Shown here: positions 8,479 through 36,982 of the stretch, piece by piece
Numbering within the stretch: position 1 is the stretch's first letter
How the letters are laid out: each line of letters starts with the position of its first letter
Origin: Patescibacteria group bacterium
GTDB taxonomy: Bacteria > Patescibacteriota > Minisyncoccia > Phycocordibacterales > Phycocordibacteraceae
Direction: 5' to 3'
Assembly: GCA_038064495.1 (NCBI GenBank)
Contig: JBBTSZ010000002.1
Coordinates: 480,002-544,001 of the forward strand
DNA length: 64,000 nt
The notes under the pieces: model-generated
The model's database searches: none
The model's input: the letters and a program-made list of their open reading frames with translations, nothing else
What the model was told of the DNA's origin: nothing
Position numbers and translations under genes: made by a program

Positions 8479-8643
8479 TCAGTTGCCGGTCGAGCGCGTT
8501 TCCGGGCCAATCGTGCTGGTGTTATGCAGCTTGGTGTTGAGCGAATTCCACGCCGCGATGGCAGCGACCGCGATCAAGGCAGCGATGAGACCGTATTCAA
8601 TTGCAGTCGCGCCATTTGTTGCCTTCCAAAACCTTTTGAACAT
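8479..8643 (-). CDS. flp: Flp/Fap-family type IVb pilin
   Basis: 54 aa: MFKRFWKATNG/ATAIEYGLIAALIAV..., with the canonical G/xxxxEY prepilin motif and AGGAGA RBS. Confidence 0.8.
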   Translation of the reverse strand: MFKRFWKATNGATAIEYGLIAALIAVAAIAAWNSLNTKLHNTSTIGPETRSTGN

Positions 8644-8680
8644 GAATGTTCTCCTGACTGAGGGCGTTCGCGAAAGCGAA

Positions 8681-8842
8681 CTACCGGTTGTTGACGCTGA
8701 TGTCGGTCGCAATCACCTTCGGCGGATTGTTGGCTTGGATAGCCGCAATGGCTGCAACACTGATAAGCGCTGCAATGAGGCCAATTTCAATCGGCGTAAC
8801 CGATTCCTTAGCCGAGCGGAAAAGATCTTTGAACTTGCTCAT
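8681..8842 (-). CDS. flp: Flp/Fap-family pilin (second tandem copy; ORF below the 60-aa track cutoff)
   Basis: Manual translation gives MSKFKDLFRSAKESVTPIEIGLIAALISVAAIAA...; TAG stop at 8681. Confidence 0.7.
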   Translation of the reverse strand: MSKFKDLFRSAKESVTPIEIGLIAALISVAAIAAIQANNPPKVIATDISVNNR

Positions 8843-10979: not shown

Positions 10980-11441
10980 ATGAAGGAGGTGCACTATTGG
11001 CTCATGAAATCCGAGCCGGAGTCCTATGGCATCACACACCTGAAGAAGGACAAAAAGACACCATGGAATGGTGTGCGGAATTATCTTGCGCGTAACTATA
11101 TGCGAGCGATGGCGCCCGGTGACCTCGTGCTGTTTTACCATTCCAGCTGTGCCGTTCCCGGCGTGTATGGCATTGCGAAGGTCGCTTCGCTTCCCTACCC
11201 GGATCCGACACAATTTGATGCGAAGAGTCACTACTTTGATGCGAAGTCAAAAAAGGAAAAGGCCCTCTGGGACCTCGTAGATATTAGCTACGTTTCTATA
11301 CTCAAGACTCCCGTGCCACTCTCAGACATTCGTAAAAACACAAAACTAAAAGGTATGAAAATACTTGAGCCACGTTGTCGGCTTTCAGTAACTCCGGTGA
11401 GTGCACATGAGTACGCTGAAATACTCAAGCTTGGTAGTTAG
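10980..11441 (+). CDS. EVE (PUA-like) domain protein
   Basis: WLMKSEP...W.GVRNYLARNYMR...GDLVLFYHS motifs. Confidence 0.85.
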   Translation: MKEVHYWLMKSEPESYGITHLKKDKKTPWNGVRNYLARNYMRAMAPGDLVLFYHSSCAVPGVYGIAKVASLPYPDPTQFDAKSHYFDAKSKKEKALWDLVDISYVSILKTPVPLSDIRKNTKLKGMKILEPRCRLSVTPVSAHEYAEILKLGS

Positions 11442-12013
11442 GCGTTCAAGATTCGCTCAATCCGACGGTCTGGAACAAACCACATAAGACCCGTAAGCAT
11501 AAAGAAGGTGATGGAGACTGCAGGGTTATAGGGAGCAAAGACAATCGCTAGTGCGTTGAAGAGAATGGAGGTTTTGCCCTTAATATCCTTGCCGAGTGCC
11601 TGCGAGAGTGAAGTCGTGTTTTCGTGAAGTGAAAGCAAATCCTTGGTGAGGAGATAGTACGCAAATGAAGCTCCGAAACCAATGACGGCGTACATGGCAA
11701 CCGGGTACGGAGCAAAGCTGGTTTCGCCCATCCAGGTGGTGGCAAATGGAATGAGCGAAAGCTAGAACAAGAGGTGAGAGTTCGCCCAAAGAGTGCGCCC
11801 GTGAATTTTCTCCACTGCCTGGAACATATGGTGATGATTGTTCCAGTAGATAGCGACCGTGATGAAACTAATAATATAGCTGAAGAAAATCGGAATGAGT
11901 GGTATGAGATTCCCGGGGTCGGCAGTTGCCGGCACTTTAAACTCGAGCACCATCACCGTAATGATGATGGCGATGACTCCGTCGGTGAAAGCCTCGAGTC
12001 GTCCCTTACTCAT
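11438..12013 (-). pseudogene. TMEM175/DUF1211-family K+ channel homolog interrupted by an in-frame TAG at 11762-11764
   Basis: RLEAFTDGVIAIIITVMVLE motif; the two ORFs (11762-12112 and 11438-11731) lie in the same frame separated only by an amber codon. Confidence 0.65.
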
Positions 12014-12020
12014 AGGTTTC

Positions 12021-12431
12021 TTATGCGGCTGGGGCCTCCGGCAGTTCGTACTCAGTTGGTCTGGGATTGAGTGTAGAATCCACCCCAGAAAGAATAGTAT
12101 CGAGCGACTCATCTGATTTCAAAATGTAGCCCTTGATACCAAGCGACACGCCCTCGCTGATTTTATCAATCGCAGAAAGGTTTGAGGTGATGTAGACGGG
12201 GATTTGTTTCTCGCCAGCATACGCTTCCTGAAGCTTTTTCAGAAAACCAATGCCGTCCAGCTTTGGCATGTTCACATCAAGGAGAATCAGGTCGGGTTTC
12301 TCTGCTTTGACCTGTTCAAGACCGGCTTCGCCATCAAGTGCGGCGACCGTGGCGTAGCCTCCCTCCTTCAGCTTGTTTGCCATCGTGAGCTGGAAAGTTA
12401 CGTCGTCGTCAATAATGAGTACTTTTTTCAT
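12021..12431 (-). CDS. Stand-alone response regulator receiver (CheY-like)
   Basis: IIDDD...D...LDVNMPKLDG...K motif set; no output domain. Confidence 0.85.
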   Translation of the reverse strand: MKKVLIIDDDVTFQLTMANKLKEGGYATVAALDGEAGLEQVKAEKPDLILLDVNMPKLDGIGFLKKLQEAYAGEKQIPVYITSNLSAIDKISEGVSLGIKGYILKSDESLDTILSGVDSTLNPRPTEYELPEAPAA

Positions 12432-14212
12432 GGTGCGCTGGTTACGGATGCTTTCTCCAATGGTATCACGAAGTAAAACACGCTTCCGACGCCTATTTCT
12501 GAGACCACCCCAATCGTGCCCCCATGCTCTTCAATAACGCCTTTTACGATAGCAAGCCCGAGGCCCGTGCCCTTTAGGCCTGTTTCAGACTTGGTATCAA
12601 GCTGCTTAAACTTGGTGAACAACTCCTTAATGCCGGCGGTACTAATGCCAGGACCCGTGTCAGACACCGCGACGAGAAGCGAATCAGGGGCGTCAACGAA
12701 GGCATCCTCAGGGAGTGGAATACTTGCCTTTGCGGGAATGGTCGCGAACTCGTCTGCTACTCGTGCGCCCTTCACGTGCTTCGCCACAATAATCTCAACG
12801 GTGCCGTCTGCCTTCGTAAATTTGATGGCGTTCGAAATCAGGTTATTCATCACCTGTTTGATAGCTGCTTGATCAAGGGAGACCTCCTTCGGGAGTTGTT
12901 TGTCGTACACGGCATGGAACATGAGCTTTGCGTCGTCAGCGCTTGGTTTGAAGAAGTCATACCGATTCTGCACAAGCGCCCGAACATCATTAGGCTCTTT
13001 TCGCACATCAAACTTCCCTGCCTCAAGTTTTGCAACGTCCAGAATGTCGTTCACGAGCTCGAGCATGCTCGAACTGTCTGCACTAATCATGTGGACATAT
13101 TCGTCGTAGTCTTTCTTTGCGATTTTCTCGGCACCCGCGCGAAGCAGTTCGCTGATTTTGTTAATGCCGGAAAGTGGCGTGCGAAGTTCGTGCACAATCA
13201 TGGAGGTAAACTGTTCCCGAATTTGTTCAATAGAACGCTCCGCCGTCACGTCGTGGAAGATAACCACACCACCCACCACATTTTTCTCCTCACCCTCACC
13301 CGTATTTGCGTTTACGGGGAACACAAAGATTTTGTAGAAACTGTCGCGAATCAACACCTCTTCAGACTTGAAGGGCTTGTTGAGCTTTACGGATTCCTCC
13401 AACTTTCCACGAATATCAAACTTTCCTTCAAGGTTATCAATGAAGTCAAATATGGTGAGGTCCGTTTTGTTTGTCTTGCCGATGATGGCGTGAACCGAAG
13501 GGTTTGCGACGAGGATACGGTAGTCGGTGTCGGTCATCACGACACCGTCGGCCATGGACTCCACCATGGCGTTCACCTTCGCCTGCTCTGCCTTCACTAC
13601 ACCCTGCAGACTCGTTACGGCTTTAGAAGCCTGTTGAATAATCTTGTAGAGGATGGTCATTTCCTCCTCTTTATAGAGCCCACTCTTGGTATCAGCTACC
13701 GTGAGCACGCCCACCACTTTTTCATCAATAACGAGTGGAATGTTGAAGAAGGAACGCACGGGCTCATCCAGCTCTTCCACAATGATGGCGCCCGAAATAA
13801 CGTCTTTCACGTCCTTCTTGGTGATTTCACGGTCAAGAAGCGCAGAAAGCGAGCCGAGCATACGGTCCTTAATATCGTTCACGAAACGCTGGTGAACGGA
13901 GCGCTCCAGGTGCATTTTGAAAATCACCTTCTCGGGGCCAAGCAACATGTAGGACACGGCCGAGTAGTCAATGAACTGGTGGAGTGAACCCGTAATAACG
14001 TCCACAATCTGTTGGACATCGAGTGAGTAACCAATGCGGTCGCCGAGCTCCTTCAGAATCGCGAGCTCGAACATGCGACGAGAAACGTCCTGTTCACGCT
14101 TAATGAGGACACGCTTTGCGGTTCTATCTTTGACGTAGAAATAGATACTCGCCGTCAGTCCGCCGACGGCGAGTATCAGTGAGATTGCGGTAACTACCTC
14201 GAGAAGAATCAT
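12428..14212 (-). CDS. Sensor histidine kinase (TM anchor, GAF/PAS-like, HisKA, HATPase_c)
   Basis: H-box HELRTPL; N, G1 and G2 boxes (DTGPGI, GTGLGL); ATGA overlap with the receiver gene. Confidence 0.9.
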   Translation of the reverse strand: MILLEVVTAISLILAVGGLTASIYFYVKDRTAKRVLIKREQDVSRRMFELAILKELGDRIGYSLDVQQIVDVITGSLHQFIDYSAVSYMLLGPEKVIFKMHLERSVHQRFVNDIKDRMLGSLSALLDREITKKDVKDVISGAIIVEELDEPVRSFFNIPLVIDEKVVGVLTVADTKSGLYKEEEMTILYKIIQQASKAVTSLQGVVKAEQAKVNAMVESMADGVVMTDTDYRILVANPSVHAIIGKTNKTDLTIFDFIDNLEGKFDIRGKLEESVKLNKPFKSEEVLIRDSFYKIFVFPVNANTGEGEEKNVVGGVVIFHDVTAERSIEQIREQFTSMIVHELRTPLSGINKISELLRAGAEKIAKKDYDEYVHMISADSSSMLELVNDILDVAKLEAGKFDVRKEPNDVRALVQNRYDFFKPSADDAKLMFHAVYDKQLPKEVSLDQAAIKQVMNNLISNAIKFTKADGTVEIIVAKHVKGARVADEFATIPAKASIPLPEDAFVDAPDSLLVAVSDTGPGISTAGIKELFTKFKQLDTKSETGLKGTGLGLAIVKGVIEEHGGTIGVVSEIGVGSVFYFVIPLEKASVTSAP

Positions 14213-14242
14213 GATATGCGTCCCGAGAGGTGACCTCCCGTA

Positions 14243-14965
14243 CTAACTGGCCTTTGCGAGTGATTTCAAACGAAGTGCAGCAACCGTGACGCACGTAGCA
14301 GCAGTAATGAGGAAGATTTTTTCAATTCCCTCGCCCACTTCGCTCGTCACCACAACTATTTTCCAGCTCTCAAACAAGAGTTCCCAGAAGTGCTGAATCG
14401 AGAGAGCTAACACGGCGATAATCATTGGGTTTGCAATCGCCTGACCAATTTGGCCGAGGTTCTTTTTTGCGCTCATGAGGTAGGAACCGACGGTTCCAGC
14501 AAGTGCAAACGCGAGGAAGTGATGGAGACCAAGGCCTGCAAGTATAGATGTGCTGTACATTTCAACGACACTGTCAGCCATACCAGGAATGAGGAAGACC
14601 ACGACAAGCACGATGATGGAGAAGATACCCCACGACTTCGCTTTGCTACCCATGAGGTCAGCTTCGTCGCTTCCGAGCTTCGTAAGAGCCTTGAAGCCGA
14701 AGTAGTAGGAGAACATGGCGAGGTAGAACATAATGTGCCACCAAATATCCATGGACTCGTCAGAAATACCGAAGAAGTCGCCCCCGAGACCCTGGAAAAT
14801 GGTAATGACAAAGAACGTACCGGTACCAATGAAGAGGTACGAGAGCACGGAACCAAGACCGGATGCGCCTACCTTACTGCGCGCCATAAGCGTAATGACG
14901 GTTGCAATGAGGAATCCGAGCGAAGAGAGGTAGAACCCAATTGAGATAATAGAATCGAGACTCAT
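14243..14965 (-). CDS. Polytopic membrane protein (hypothetical)
   Basis: Six to seven predicted TM helices; immediately upstream of the histidine kinase. Confidence 0.45.
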   Translation of the reverse strand: MSLDSIISIGFYLSSLGFLIATVITLMARSKVGASGLGSVLSYLFIGTGTFFVITIFQGLGGDFFGISDESMDIWWHIMFYLAMFSYYFGFKALTKLGSDEADLMGSKAKSWGIFSIIVLVVVFLIPGMADSVVEMYSTSILAGLGLHHFLAFALAGTVGSYLMSAKKNLGQIGQAIANPMIIAVLALSIQHFWELLFESWKIVVVTSEVGEGIEKIFLITAATCVTVAALRLKSLAKAS

Positions 14966-14968
14966 ACG

Positions 14969-15238
14969 CTATTTGTTAATTTCGATATTCGGATACTTCG
15001 CGAAGATAGAACCGAGGGCGTTCTTCACGATTTGTCCTGAAAGCTCCACATACTGGTCAACGAGGTTCTGCAGGGTCTCTTTTGGGTTGTCGCCAACACT
15101 CGTTACCTTTCCATCGTTGTCTACCTGGAGGCCAGACACGCTACGAGCTTTTAATATAGCGATTTCAGGACCGAGAATCACTGATTGCTTCTTAATAATC
15201 TCTGTAATGAGAGCGGTATACTGTGCTGTTTCTTCCAT
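14969..15238 (-). CDS. Hypothetical protein
   Basis: 89 aa counted from the internal Met. Confidence 0.3.
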   Translation of the reverse strand: MEETAQYTALITEIIKKQSVILGPEIAILKARSVSGLQVDNDGKVTSVGDNPKETLQNLVDQYVELSGQIVKNALGSIFAKYPNIEINK

Positions 15239-34094: not shown

Positions 34095-34472
34095 CTACTT
34101 CGGCTTCTTGAGAGATTCAAAAGCCTTTTCAGGAAGTTCGACTCCGTACCATCTCCTTCTAGTACCAACCAATGCAAGAACTTTATAATTAGCTTGCACA
34201 TCTGATCGGTTGTTTACTTTTCTGAACTGACGCTCAGCGCGCCGAATAGTAGGCCGTAGCGGACCTTTACTTTCACAACCAACCGCGTGCTCACCCTCCA
34301 CAGACCACAACGAAAACAAAGAGACGGTGTAGAGCAGATCTTGTGGTCTTTGTTCAAGTGACTCTTTTGCCTCACGAACGGCTGCTAACTTAGCCATAAG
34401 TATGGCTTCCTTAATCCGGAGGCATTCACCAATACTCACGCGAAGCGAAAACTCCTCTGAAGCAATGCCCAT
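34095..34472 (-). CDS. Hypothetical protein
   Basis: AAGGAG RBS; 125 aa; no recognised motifs. Confidence 0.4.
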   Translation of the reverse strand: MGIASEEFSLRVSIGECLRIKEAILMAKLAAVREAKESLEQRPQDLLYTVSLFSLWSVEGEHAVGCESKGPLRPTIRRAERQFRKVNNRSDVQANYKVLALVGTRRRWYGVELPEKAFESLKKPK

Positions 34473-34574: not shown

Positions 34575-34905
34575 ACCGCCCCATCATATGGGGCGGAAAG
34601 TGGTGATTCAGGCAACCTACGGCGACTCCTTTTTCCCGCAGGATTCAGAGTCTTGTCTCCAGCACGGGTGGTGTTTCATTGGCGACTTCCGTCTCCCACC
34701 TAGTATGCGCACAATTGAATGCGCAGAGGTACGCGATGCCAGATAAGCTAACGATCCGCCCCAGAGGAATCGAACCTCCGGACATTCCGACACCATCGGA
34801 ACATCGGCTGTTAAGGAGTCGAACCCTCTTTACCCTCACCAACAAGGAACAGCAGGACCTCAAGCGTTTGCCTGAATCACCGACCGCAAGTCTACCCTGA
34901 CCGCG
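34575..34905 (-). ncRNA. tRNA-like / tmRNA-like structured RNA region (identity unresolved) with its own terminator
   Basis: On the minus strand there are two GGTTCGAnTCC T-loop-like motifs, a GGU-anticodon-like hairpin, the 3' acceptor-like GGGGCGG-A, and a 14-bp long-range helix (GGTGATTCAGGCAA/TTGCCTGAATCACC). A short frame GCC AAT GAA... (ANETPPVLETRL*) is present. A terminator lies at 34566-34597. Confidence 0.3.
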
Positions 34906-34909
34906 CACG

Positions 34910-36982
34910 ATGTCAAAACGATTCCGAAATCGTCGCAAGAACAAATCCTCGGAATCTGCTACAGTAGCTGAAATGACCGACGCTGAATCTCCTATATACG
35001 AGGGGCCAATAACCATTATCAAAACCGGTAAGGGGTTTTTTTCATATGACCCTGAAAAGGATGATCTCTTCGTTCCGGGCGAGAATCTGGGTGGCGCCTT
35101 TCCGGGCGACATTGTGAAGGTGACCACGGCCGGCATGGAAGCCGACCCAAAGACCAAACAGCTGAAGCCTATCGGCAAGGTGGTTGAGGTCGTCTCGCGT
35201 AATCGCGAGACGTTTGTGGGCACGCTCACGAGTAGTCGTGAAGACCTTCCGGCAGACGCTCCGAATCTCGTCATGATGCTTCCTGACTGGAAGAAAATGT
35301 ACGTGCCGTTTGTGGTGAAAGGTGAGAACCTCCCGATTGGTCAGAAAGTGCTGATTCGCTTCCAGGGATGGGCAGCGAATCAGCCCTACCCATGGGGCAC
35401 ACTTGAGGAAATTATCGGTCCCGCAGGTGACCACGAGACTGAGATGCGCGCACTCGCGCTCTCACAAGGGTTCCGTAGTGACTTCCCTCCTGGCGTTGTC
35501 GGCGAGGCACGTGTTCTTGAAGAAACCGGCAAAGGACTCATCGCAAAGGATGCTGAGGAAGGTATTGCCGCCGGACGGCGAAAAGATTTCCGTGAAGTAA
35601 CTACCTTCACGATTGACCCGTTTGATGCAAAAGACTTTGATGATGCTCTTTCAGTTCGCGTGCTCGAGAATGGCAACACCGAAGTGGGCGTACACATTGC
35701 CGACGTCTCCTATTTTGTAAGCCCCGGAACTGCGATAGATGACGAAGCACGTCAGCGCGCCACTTCGGTGTATCTCGTGGACCGCACCATCCCCATGCTT
35801 CCGGAGGTACTCTCCACAAACCTTTGTTCGCTGAATCCGAACGAAGACCGTCTCTCGGTCTCGGCGGTGTTTGAACTGAACGCGAACGCGGAAGTGGTTT
35901 CCAAGTGGTTCGGTGAAACCGTCATTCACTCTGATAGGCGCTTCACCTATGAAGATGCGCAGGAGGTGCTTGATAGTCAGTCGGGAGATTTTCTTACAGA
36001 ATTGAACACGCTCAAGACGCTGGCGTTCAAGATTCGTGACCGTCGTACTAAGAGTGGCGCCATTGCCTTTGATACCCCCGAAGTAAAGATAAAGCTGGAT
36101 GAGACCGGGAAACCCATTTCCGTCACACTGAAGGAGCGTCGCGATACGAACCTGCTGATTGAAGACTTCATGCTTCTTGCAAACGAGAACGTTGCAGAAA
36201 TGTTGTCAGAAAAAGCGCAGAAAGCAGGGCTCACGAATTCGGTTATCTACCGCATCCACGACCTGCCCGACGCTGAGCGTATTGAAAACCTTTCGCAATT
36301 CTTGAAGGTGATGGGTTATGAGCTTGAAACGCATGCCGGTCGCGTGAAAGGTTCCGACATTAATGCCCTACTTAAGCAAGTGGAAGGCAAGCCGGAAGAA
36401 TATTTGATAAAGACCGCTACCCTACGCTCCATGGCAAAAGCGGTCTACACTACGAAGAACGTCGGCCACTTCGGTCTTGCCTTTGAGTTCTATACGCATT
36501 TCACGTCTCCTATTCGTCGCTATCCTGACCTTCTCATTCACCGCCTCGTGAAGCACAACACTAACGGCGAACCATTTACCACGAGCCAAGTCGCAGAGCT
36601 TCAGAACCTTGCGACGCATTCAAGTGAGCGCGAGGCCGGAGCCGTAGAGGCTGAGCGTGATTCCATCAAGATGAAACTCGTTGAGTTTATGGAAGATAAG
36701 GTCGGGCAGGAATTTGCTGCCGTTATTTCCGGTGTCTCAGACCGCGGACTCTATGTGGAACTGAATGAAACCCGTGCAGAAGGCATGATTAAGATTCGTG
36801 ATCTCGGCGACTCGTCTCGCGACGGAGCGGGCGACTACTTCGTCTACGACGAGAAACGCTATCGCATTATTGGCGAGCGCACGAAGGTGCAATACGCGCT
36901 TGGAGACCCGGTGACCGTAAAACTTATTGCTGCACGACTACAAGAGCGTGAACTCGACTTCGCCCTCGTGAAGCCCGCATAA
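34910..36982 (+). CDS. rnr: Ribonuclease R (RNB family 3'-5' exoribonuclease)
   Basis: N-terminal basic tail, cold-shock-like domain, RNB catalytic motifs and a C-terminal S1 domain. Confidence 0.9.
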   Translation: MSKRFRNRRKNKSSESATVAEMTDAESPIYEGPITIIKTGKGFFSYDPEKDDLFVPGENLGGAFPGDIVKVTTAGMEADPKTKQLKPIGKVVEVVSRNRETFVGTLTSSREDLPADAPNLVMMLPDWKKMYVPFVVKGENLPIGQKVLIRFQGWAANQPYPWGTLEEIIGPAGDHETEMRALALSQGFRSDFPPGVVGEARVLEETGKGLIAKDAEEGIAAGRRKDFREVTTFTIDPFDAKDFDDALSVRVLENGNTEVGVHIADVSYFVSPGTAIDDEARQRATSVYLVDRTIPMLPEVLSTNLCSLNPNEDRLSVSAVFELNANAEVVSKWFGETVIHSDRRFTYEDAQEVLDSQSGDFLTELNTLKTLAFKIRDRRTKSGAIAFDTPEVKIKLDETGKPISVTLKERRDTNLLIEDFMLLANENVAEMLSEKAQKAGLTNSVIYRIHDLPDAERIENLSQFLKVMGYELETHAGRVKGSDINALLKQVEGKPEEYLIKTATLRSMAKAVYTTKNVGHFGLAFEFYTHFTSPIRRYPDLLIHRLVKHNTNGEPFTTSQVAELQNLATHSSEREAGAVEAERDSIKMKLVEFMEDKVGQEFAAVISGVSDRGLYVELNETRAEGMIKIRDLGDSSRDGAGDYFVYDEKRYRIIGERTKVQYALGDPVTVKLIAARLQERELDFALVKPA

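What the first reader, a model, noticed from the sequence alone, without database searches (positions are those of the whole stretch)
11438..14965. Two-component system coupled to a TMEM175-like K+ channel gene that carries an in-frame amber codon
A membrane protein, a GAF/PAS histidine kinase and a receiver-only regulator are followed 8 nt later by a DUF1211/TMEM175-family channel gene. That gene is split by a single in-frame TAG at 11762-11764; the two halves are otherwise collinear and together match the ~220-aa family length. TAG and TGA both terminate other genes here (for example the second pilin and the first pilin), so this is a nonsense mutation, a sequencing error, or programmed readthrough rather than a recoded genetic code.
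Basis: seen in the sequence. Interest (0 to 1): 0.5.

Follow-up and report, generated by a model that had tools for sequence, protein, structure and literature searches.

The report
Nonsense-mutated TMEM175 channel gene
A potassium-channel-family gene in an uncultured groundwater bacterium is cut short by one real G-to-A mutation that turns a conserved tryptophan codon into a stop, which is an ordinary strain-specific gene loss and not recoding or a special regulatory system.

Summary
On the minus strand, a 191-codon TMEM175/DUF1211 gene (ATG 12013, TAA 11438-11440) carries one in-frame TAG at 11762-11764 (codon 84). The Pfam TMEM175 profile and the match to the CmTMEM175 crystal structure both run across it.

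All 35 aligned homologues (54-61% identical, 189-198 aa) have Trp there. A sister strain about 98% identical (GCA_041643195.1) has TGG in the same RR-TMEM175-EVE context. So the change is TGG>TAG, one transition, in the middle of helix 3.

It is not a sequencing error. The same TAG, on 100% identical DNA, occurs in three separately assembled Hainich well H41 libraries and in an NCBI MAG.

It is not recoding. TAG ends 19 of 42 long ORFs, including two genes of this operon at the homologue-supported C-termini. The ARAGORN "suppressor tRNA" call gets no Rfam support.

The "two-component system coupled to a channel" idea is not supported as a system. None of 57 orthologous kinase loci has TMEM175 after the kinase-regulator pair, and the three closest TMEM175 homologues examined stand alone. 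The conserved unit is instead an uncharacterised 89-aa protein, often a membrane protein, then HK and usually RR.

Verdict: a recent, population-wide loss-of-function allele of a lineage-specific accessory gene. Low interest.

The parts
11765..12013 (-). TMEM175-family gene, 5' part (codons 1-83). It encodes helix 1 (pore-lining, with the RLEAFTD motif), helix 2, and the first half of helix 3.
   Evidence: The fragment alone matches Pfam PF06736 at 100 bits. Helix boundaries come from an AF2 model of the gaplessly aligned homologue P0004.
11762..11764 (-). In-frame amber codon TAG (codon 84) in place of an invariant Trp codon. The mutated base is window position 11763.
   Evidence: Searches show the codon. 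All 35 homologues have W84. The sister strain L006 has TGG. The same TAG is present in L001, L002, L003 and L005.
11438..11761 (-). TMEM175-family gene, 3' part (codons 85-191 plus TAA at 11438-11440). It covers the rest of helix 3 and helices 4-6, and is still intact and in frame.
   Evidence: Against the sister strain it shows 7 synonymous and 1 conservative change. Gene callers report it as a 97-aa ORF starting at M95.
12021..12431 (-). Receiver-only response regulator (136 aa, D52 in LLDVNMP). Its stop lies 7 nt before the TMEM175 start.
   Evidence: Pfam Response_reg matches residues 4-106 and no other domain is found. NCBIfam gives receiver matches only.
12428..14212 (-). Histidine kinase (594 aa) with one N-terminal TM segment and GAF, PAS, HisKA (H-box HELRTPL) and HATPase_c domains. 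It overlaps the RR start by 4 nt (ATGA).
   Evidence: Orthologues at 36-77% identity occur in 57 Patescibacteria loci.
14243..14965 (-). 240-aa membrane protein with six hydrophobic segments and no family match. It is present only in the closer relatives.
   Evidence: No Pfam or NCBIfam match. A tblastn hit lies between the 89-aa gene and the HK in 19 related loci.
14969..15238 (-). Conserved 89-aa protein of unknown function. The real start is probably M25 of the 113-aa ORF. It is the first gene of the conserved module.
   Evidence: It has 458 homologues, and the 120 listed are 88-95 aa, mostly 89. It lies directly upstream of the HK, or of the membrane protein, in 52 of 57 loci.
10980..11441 (+). 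Convergent EVE-domain gene. Its TAG (11439-11441) overlaps the TMEM175 TAA (11438-11440), so TMEM175 is the last gene of its transcription unit.
   Evidence: Pfam EVE at 6e-55. The overlap is shown.

Best explanation
This is a genuine, strain-specific nonsense mutation. A single G>A transition changed the invariant Trp84 codon (TGG) of a bacterial-type, single-repeat TMEM175 channel gene to TAG.

Translation should stop after residue 83, in the middle of transmembrane helix 3. The product would have helices 1-2 and half of helix 3 and would lack helices 4-6, so it cannot form the six-helix subunit of the tetrameric channel. The gene is effectively a young pseudogene.

The gene itself is a lineage-specific accessory gene. 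It sits at the 3' end of a conserved Patescibacteria signalling operon (89-aa protein, membrane protein, GAF-PAS kinase, receiver) and is not a conserved partner of that operon. Being the last gene in the unit, its loss has no polar effect on other genes.

Shown: the mutation, its ancestral state, its reproducibility across assemblies, normal use of TAG as a stop, and the lack of conserved synteny. Inferred: loss of channel function, co-transcription with the operon, and acquisition by horizontal transfer.
For: (1) The TAG lies in frame between two collinear halves of one TMEM175 domain.

(2) Trp is invariant at this column in 35 homologues of 189-198 aa.

(3) P0125/L006 (GCA_041643195.1, 940-bp contig) is an intact 191-aa allele in the same RR-TMEM175-EVE context. 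It has TGG at codon 84, and the other 13 differences in the gene are 12 synonymous plus I168V.

(4) The TAG allele is on 100% identical DNA in ERZ1292619, ERZ1292633 and ERZ1292628 and in NCBI MAG GCA_964357455.1. The three ERZ assemblies carry the names H41 0.1 um R2, 0.2 um R1 and 0.2 um R2. Filter fractions at this site were sequenced as separate libraries (PMC8672522).

(5) TAG is a normal terminator here. It ends 19 of 42 long ORFs. It ends the 89-aa gene at exactly the homologues' C-terminus and also ends the 240-aa gene of the same operon.

(6) Codon 84 falls in helix 3 (residues 72-97) of a confident model of a 59%-identical, gaplessly aligned homologue (pLDDT 87). That model superposes on CmTMEM175 5vre_A over all six helices (TM 0.79/0.81).

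(7) NCBI protein accessions run MEK7602411 (helicase) to MEK7602417 (RR) with exactly five intervening genes. The two TMEM175 pieces have no accession, which fits NCBI's annotation giving the gene no protein product.

(8) There is no conserved TCS-TMEM175 linkage from either side.
Against: The 3' half shows no decay. Against the sister strain it has 7 synonymous and 1 conservative change (dN/dS about 0.05; probability 3e-4 under full neutrality, 0.046 if half the changes were neutral). The mutation is therefore either very recent or the downstream part is still under selection.

The allele is the only one assembled from well H41, so it is not obviously deleterious there.

The base after the stop is C, the rarest +4 base among natural TAG stops in the window (2 of 19). 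It has been reported as a weaker termination context in other organisms (PMC5289835), so some leakiness cannot be excluded.

No read pile-ups, transcripts or peptides could be examined.
Confidence: 0.85

Rival explanations
1. Leaky allele. The UAG-C stop is read through at a low level by a near-cognate tRNA, so a small amount of full-length channel is still made. The population would carry a hypomorphic rather than a null allele.
For: The +4 base is C, which is rare among natural TAG stops here (2 of 19) and is linked to higher readthrough in other systems (PMC5289835). The 3' half is undecayed. The 100 nt from the stop fold more stably than shuffles (z -3.2).
Against: The stop is absent from the nearest strain (TGG), so nothing is 'programmed'.

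The predicted hairpin begins at the stop codon itself and would be melted inside the ribosome. Its sequence is identical in the TGG allele apart from the mutated base.

Near-cognate decoding of UAG usually inserts Gln, Tyr or Lys (PMC5289835 and my own knowledge) at a column that is invariably Trp.

Ordinary readthrough is a percent or less (my own knowledge).
Confidence: 0.07
2. Sequencing or assembly error. The true base is G and the gene is intact.
For: It is a single-base difference. Two of the supporting contigs have very low coverage (cov 1-2).
Against: The same A appears in three separately assembled libraries, one of them at cov 9, and in an NCBI MAG besides the window. The G allele appears only on a haplotype that differs at 13 other positions in the gene.
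Confidence: 0.02
3. Functional split gene. The 83-aa N-fragment and a 97-aa C-fragment, re-initiated at M95 (ATG 11731), assemble into a channel.
For: An in-frame ATG lies 10 codons after the stop, and gene callers report a 97-aa ORF there.
Against: Residues 84-94 (WLSLIPFATTW), the second half of helix 3 with invariant positions, would be missing from both pieces. There is no SD-like motif before M95. No homologue is split: all are single 189-198-aa proteins. The sister strain is unsplit.
Confidence: 0.02
4. TAG is decoded as an amino acid in this organism, through code reassignment, a suppressor tRNA or pyrrolysine.
For: ARAGORN calls a 98-nt 'tRNA-Stop (tta)' at 34755-34852. Neighbouring genes are in the same frame more often than expected (22 of 39 pairs).
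Against: TAG ends 19 of 42 long ORFs and ends the 89-aa gene exactly where its homologues end.

Rfam finds no tRNA at that site, either at gathering threshold or at E<=1. An anticodon UUA would also suppress TAA, the commonest stop together with TAG.

The in-frame excess is the same for TAA and TGA junctions. The p89/membrane-protein junction is not in frame in L007 or L008 (coordinates).
Confidence: 0.01

Closest known systems
Bacterial single-repeat TMEM175 channels (CmTMEM175, PDB 5VRE; MtTMEM175, PDB 6HD8)
   Same: There is a sequence match to 5vre_A at E 2.7e-14 across the stop. Length is 191 aa, with six predicted helices in a close homologue that superposes on 5vre_A (TM about 0.8).

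The residues of the helix 1-3 hydrogen-bond network and the selectivity Thr described for MtTMEM175 (Arg24, Asp30, Thr38, Trp74, His77, Asn95; PMC7176437) occur at the same relative spacing as R5, D11, T19, W57, H60 and N78.
   Different: The reading frame is interrupted at codon 84. The signature FSD is FTD here, whereas Ser is invariant in the 35 homologues. Only 31% structure-based identity links the subfamily to CmTMEM175 (measured on homologue P0004). No conductance data exist for this subfamily.
Ordinary nonsense pseudogenes of accessory genes in bacterial populations
   Same: A single transition creates a premature stop in one strain, a near-identical strain has the intact allele, there is no other lesion, and the gene is not part of the conserved gene set of the lineage.
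   Different: Nothing of substance. The only notable points are that the allele dominates one aquifer well and that the gene is still undecayed.
Programmed stop-codon readthrough or amber suppression (for example phage Qbeta A1 readthrough, pyrrolysine; my own knowledge)
   Same: An in-frame stop is followed by a conserved, in-frame coding continuation.
   Different: The stop is not conserved in the nearest relative. TAG is used normally as a terminator. No suppressor tRNA is supported. The replaced residue is a plain conserved Trp.
Two-component control of K+ transport (KdpDE-kdpFABC type; my own knowledge)
   Same: A histidine kinase and response regulator are encoded next to a gene of a K+ channel family and are probably co-transcribed (7-nt spacer).
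   Different: The RR has only a receiver domain and no DNA-binding output. The adjacency is absent from all 57 orthologous HK loci and from the three nearest TMEM175 homologues examined. The kinase sensor is GAF-PAS and not Kdp-like.

Membership tests
TMEM175 / DUF1211 (PF06736) channel family | Match to the family profile above the curated cut-off | tested here: met
   105.6 bits against a cut-off of 25 for the read-through product, and 100 bits for the 83-aa fragment alone.
TMEM175 / DUF1211 (PF06736) channel family | One complete six-helix repeat per subunit (bacterial type; PMC7176437) | tested here: not met
   As encoded, the ORF stops at residue 83, inside helix 3. The repeat is complete (191 aa, collinear with homologues) only if the TAG is ignored. 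By descent the gene is a family member, but it is a disrupted one.
TMEM175 / DUF1211 (PF06736) channel family | RxxxFSD signature at the start of helix 1 | tested here: inconclusive
   The sequence is R5-L-E-A-F9-T10-D11, so Ser is replaced by Thr. Ser is invariant in the 35 homologues. The intact sister allele also has Thr. Thr keeps the hydroxyl, and the functional effect is unknown.
TMEM175 / DUF1211 (PF06736) channel family | Conserved helix 1-3 network and selectivity Thr (MtTMEM175 Arg24, Asp30, Thr38, Trp74, His77, Asn95) | tested here: met
   R5, D11, T19, W57, H60 and N78 occur at the same spacings (D+8=T, W+3=H, H+18=N) and are invariant in the alignment.
TMEM175 / DUF1211 (PF06736) channel family | Tetramer formation and K+-selective conductance | not testable with these tools
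   This needs expression and electrophysiology or flux assays.
Two-component system | Kinase with HisKA (phospho-His) and HATPase_c, plus a cognate receiver with a phospho-Asp | tested here: met
   HisKA at 2.6e-15 and HATPase_c at 5.8e-23, with H-box HELRTPL. Response_reg at 9.4e-22 with D52. The genes overlap by 4 nt.
   None of 57 orthologous HK loci has TMEM175 after the RR. Two loci have only distant (28-34%) TMEM175 genes 2-5 kb away, one on the other strand. Three of three close TMEM175 homologues have no TCS neighbour.
Programmed readthrough / stop-codon recoding | Stop codon conserved at the site in relatives | tested here: not met
   The sister strain has TGG and all 35 homologues have Trp.
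Programmed readthrough / stop-codon recoding | A dedicated decoding device (suppressor tRNA) or depletion of TAG as a terminator | tested here: not met
   TAG ends 19 of 42 long ORFs. Rfam does not support the only ARAGORN candidate. Only this 64-kb window could be scanned, not the rest of the genome.

The most novel reading that the evidence does not exclude
The amber allele is not null. Termination at UAG-C is leaky in this ultra-small bacterium, possibly genome-wide, which might relate to the unexplained excess of same-frame neighbouring genes. The H41 population would then keep a low, tuned dose of a TMEM175 channel co-expressed with a conserved CPR signalling operon.
Probability: 0.04. 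Interest if true: 0.45.

Novelty: new member of a known kind. Interest (0 to 1): 0.1.

Why it matters
It matters little beyond correct annotation. The locus should be annotated as one disrupted TMEM175-family gene, not as two small ORFs or a recoded gene. The neighbouring two-component system should not be read as a K+-channel regulator.

It is a clean small example of gain and then loss of an accessory gene in a reduced Patescibacteria genome, with both alleles on record.

The more useful by-product is the signalling module that is actually conserved in this lineage: a highly conserved, unannotated 89-aa protein, often a membrane protein, a GAF-PAS kinase and usually a receiver.

Tried and rejected
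- **Reassigned code.** Rejected on stop-codon usage (19 TAG, 19 TAA, 4 TGA among 42 long ORFs) and on homologue-matched C-termini at TAG.
- **Suppressor tRNA.** The ARAGORN 'tRNA-Stop (tta)' at 34755-34852 has no Rfam tRNA match at gathering threshold or at E<=1, and its fold z-score is only -2. I treat it as a false positive or a tRNA-like remnant.
- **Readthrough-stimulating RNA structure.** The 100 nt from the TAG fold with z -3.2. But the stem starts at the stop codon, and apart from the mutated base the sequence is identical in the TGG allele. It is not specific evidence.
- **More alleles.** A scan of JGI/ENA metagenome contigs with N at the mutated base returned only the already known H41 contig.
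- **Foreign composition.** GC of the gene (0.47-0.50) matches its neighbours.
- **Promoters and terminators.** Promoter-like sites were at chance level (4 found, 4.1 expected). Terminator-like sites were more frequent than in shuffles (10 found, 4.3 expected) but were not informative for this question.
- **Structure of the merged protein.** I modelled homologue P0004 instead.
- **Provenance of the sister-strain assembly.** A search for JBGGHF found no paper.
- **Polarising the 13 other differences.** This is not possible, because the next homologue is only 61% identical.
Full report
**What is in the sequence**

The feature is on the minus strand. After the TAA of a receiver-only response regulator (12023-12021) come 7 nt, then an ATG at 12013-12011. 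Next are 83 sense codons, a TAG at 11764-11762, 107 more in-frame sense codons, and a TAA at 11440-11438.

Read through the TAG, the product is 191 aa. Pfam's TMEM175 profile (PF06736) matches residues 5-89 against profile positions 1-88 of 88. It therefore crosses the stop, at 105.6 bits against a cut-off of 25. The sequence match to the crystal structure of CmTMEM175 (5vre_A, E 2.7e-14) also spans the stop.

**The ancestral codon**

A search of 5.8 billion proteins gave thousands of full-length homologues. The best are 54-61% identical, cover 99-100% of the merged sequence, and are nearly all 189-198 aa. In two alignments (21 and 35 homologues) the column under the TAG is invariably Trp, within HLLF-W-LSLIPF. 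Many invariant columns lie after it.

An exact-sequence look-up showed that the two fragments share a 90% cluster with one intact 191-aa protein, P0125. Its contig is L006 (GCA_041643195.1, 940 bp). It has the same RR-end, TMEM175 and EVE-end context and reads TGG at codon 84.

Within the 576-nt gene the two strains differ at 14 positions: the TAG/TGG site, 12 synonymous sites, and one I168V change. The lesion is therefore a single G>A transition (TGG>TAG) at window position 11763.

**Real or artefact**

The TAG allele is present on 100% identical DNA in four other assemblies:
- ERZ1292619, contig name Hain_H41_01um_R2, cov 9
- ERZ1292633, Hain_H41_02um_R1
- ERZ1292628, Hain_H41_02um_R2
- NCBI MAG GCA_964357455.1

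The names match the Hainich aquifer design, in which 0.2 and 0.1 um filter fractions of each well were extracted and sequenced in triplicate as separate libraries (PMC8672522). A random sequencing error is excluded. The allele is the one assembled from well H41 every time.

A pattern scan of metagenome contigs with N at the mutated base found no further alleles.

NCBI names the neighbouring proteins as from a 'Patescibacteria group bacterium'. The accession numbers run from the helicase (MEK7602411) to the RR (MEK7602417) with exactly five genes between them. The TMEM175 pieces have no accession. I infer that NCBI's annotation gives the gene no protein product, as it would for a pseudogene.

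**Recoding and readthrough**

TAG ends 19 of 42 long ORFs, TAA 19 and TGA 4. In the same operon TAG ends the 89-aa gene exactly where its homologues end, and it ends the 240-aa gene as well.

ARAGORN reports a 98-nt 'tRNA-Stop (tta)' at 34755-34852. Rfam finds no tRNA anywhere in the window at gathering threshold, nor at that site at E<=1. The fold is unremarkable.

The 100 nt beginning at the TAG fold better than shuffles (z -3.2). But the hairpin starts at the stop codon itself, and its sequence differs from the TGG allele only at the mutated base.

The +4 base is C, the rarest after natural TAG stops here (T 8, A 6, G 3, C 2). It has been described as a weaker context in other organisms (PMC5289835). 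Some leakiness cannot be excluded. Nothing indicates a programmed event, because the nearest relative simply has Trp.

**Consequence for the protein**

Bacterial TMEM175 proteins are single six-helix repeats that form tetramers. Helix 1 lines the pore, and a hydrogen-bond network ties helices 1-3 together (PMC7176437). The corresponding residues are all present here at the same spacings: R5, D11, T19, W57, H60 and N78. The exception is that the FSD signature reads FTD, in both alleles.

It is 59% identical, 191 aa, and aligns without gaps. The model has pLDDT 87, with helices at 3-23, 33-66, 72-97, 102-128, 144-162 and 164-179. It superposes on 5vre_A over 188 columns (TM 0.79/0.81).

Codon 84 therefore lies in the middle of helix 3. 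The truncated product lacks half of helix 3 and helices 4-6.

A re-initiated 97-aa fragment from M95 would still lack residues 84-94, and no SD-like motif precedes it. I infer loss of channel function.

**Age of the lesion**

After the stop, the two strains differ by 7 synonymous changes and 1 conservative change, giving dN/dS of about 0.05. The probability of at most 1 non-synonymous change among 8 is 3e-4 under full neutrality. It is 0.046 if only the four changes expected on this lineage were neutral.

The mutation is therefore recent relative to the roughly 2% divergence of the strains, or the 3' part is still constrained. This is the main point in favour of the leaky-allele rival.

**Is the channel 'coupled' to the two-component system?**

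They are a 594-aa kinase with one TM segment and GAF, PAS, HisKA and HATPase_c domains; a 136-aa receiver-only regulator overlapping it by 4 nt; and a 240-aa membrane protein with six hydrophobic segments and no family match.

A scan of one genome per species found 57 loci with an orthologous kinase (36-77% identity). All come from assemblies labelled as Patescibacteria, Parcubacteria and similar. tblastn with the window's proteins gave the following:
- The 89-aa protein lies directly upstream in 52 of the 57 loci. Four of the five exceptions lack upstream sequence.
- The membrane protein is present in 19 loci.
- The receiver lies just downstream of the kinase in most loci; in some a receiver gene lies upstream instead, and in some there are two.
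- TMEM175 never follows the receiver.

The genes after the receiver differ from locus to locus. Only two loci have a distant TMEM175 gene (28-34% identity) 2-5 kb away.

Conversely, three of the closest TMEM175 homologues are stand-alone genes with unrelated neighbours. The named close homologues are from cyanobacteria, Chloroflexi and a gammaproteobacterium, while the relative L010's own TMEM175 is only 34% identical. This suggests horizontal acquisition, though it is an inference: GC content is not deviant.

The adjacency is therefore peculiar to this species. A receiver without an output domain gives no obvious route to regulating the channel other than co-transcription.

**Verdict**

This is a young, strain-specific nonsense allele of a lineage-specific accessory gene. 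It is real in the population, is not recoding, and is not part of a conserved TCS-channel system. Confidence is about 0.85. The main rival, a leaky hypomorphic allele, is at about 0.07.

The finding is ordinary. Its practical value is in annotation, and in pointing to the signalling module that is actually conserved, headed by an unannotated 89-aa protein.

Noticed in passing
[not shown]
   Followed up: partly
window 34755-34852 (-): ARAGORN calls a 98-nt 'tRNA-Stop' with anticodon tta. Rfam finds no tRNA there (E<=1) and none anywhere in the 64-kb window. The stretch carries two T-arm-like motifs (GGGTTCGACTCC and GGTTCGATTCC). It sits in a gap of about 430 nt between genes 34095-34472 (-) and 34910-36982 (+). 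It may be a tRNA-like remnant.
   Followed up: partly
whole window (same-strand neighbouring ORFs): 22 of 39 same-strand neighbouring ORF pairs are in the same reading frame, where one third is expected (binomial p about 0.003). The excess holds for TAA (9/18), TAG (9/14) and TGA (4/7) junctions alike. It is not conserved at the p89/membrane-protein junction in L007 or L008. It could be chance or an effect of my crude ORF calling, and remains unexplained.
   Followed up: no
window 11438-11441: The convergent TMEM175 and EVE-domain genes overlap at their stop codons (TAA on the minus strand at 11438-11440, TAG on the plus strand at 11439-11441). No intergenic terminator is therefore possible. 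A terminator-like hairpin for the minus strand lies inside the EVE gene at 11276-11259.
   Followed up: no
window 11984-11986 (codon 10 of the TMEM175 gene): The family's FSD signature reads FTD in both the TAG and the TGG alleles, whereas Ser is invariant in the 35 nearest homologues. The gene may already have been evolving atypically before the nonsense mutation.
   Followed up: no
window 11665-11764 (-): The 100 nt starting at the TAG fold into two hairpins with z -3.2 against shuffles (1 of 200 as stable). The sequence is the same in the intact sister allele apart from the mutated base, so the structure is not tied to the stop.
   Followed up: partly
window 8479-8842 (-): Two tandem Flp/Fap-type pilin genes (53 and 54 aa) lie between the UvrD-like helicase and a 181-aa ORF. 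One ends in TAG and the other in TGA.
   Followed up: no
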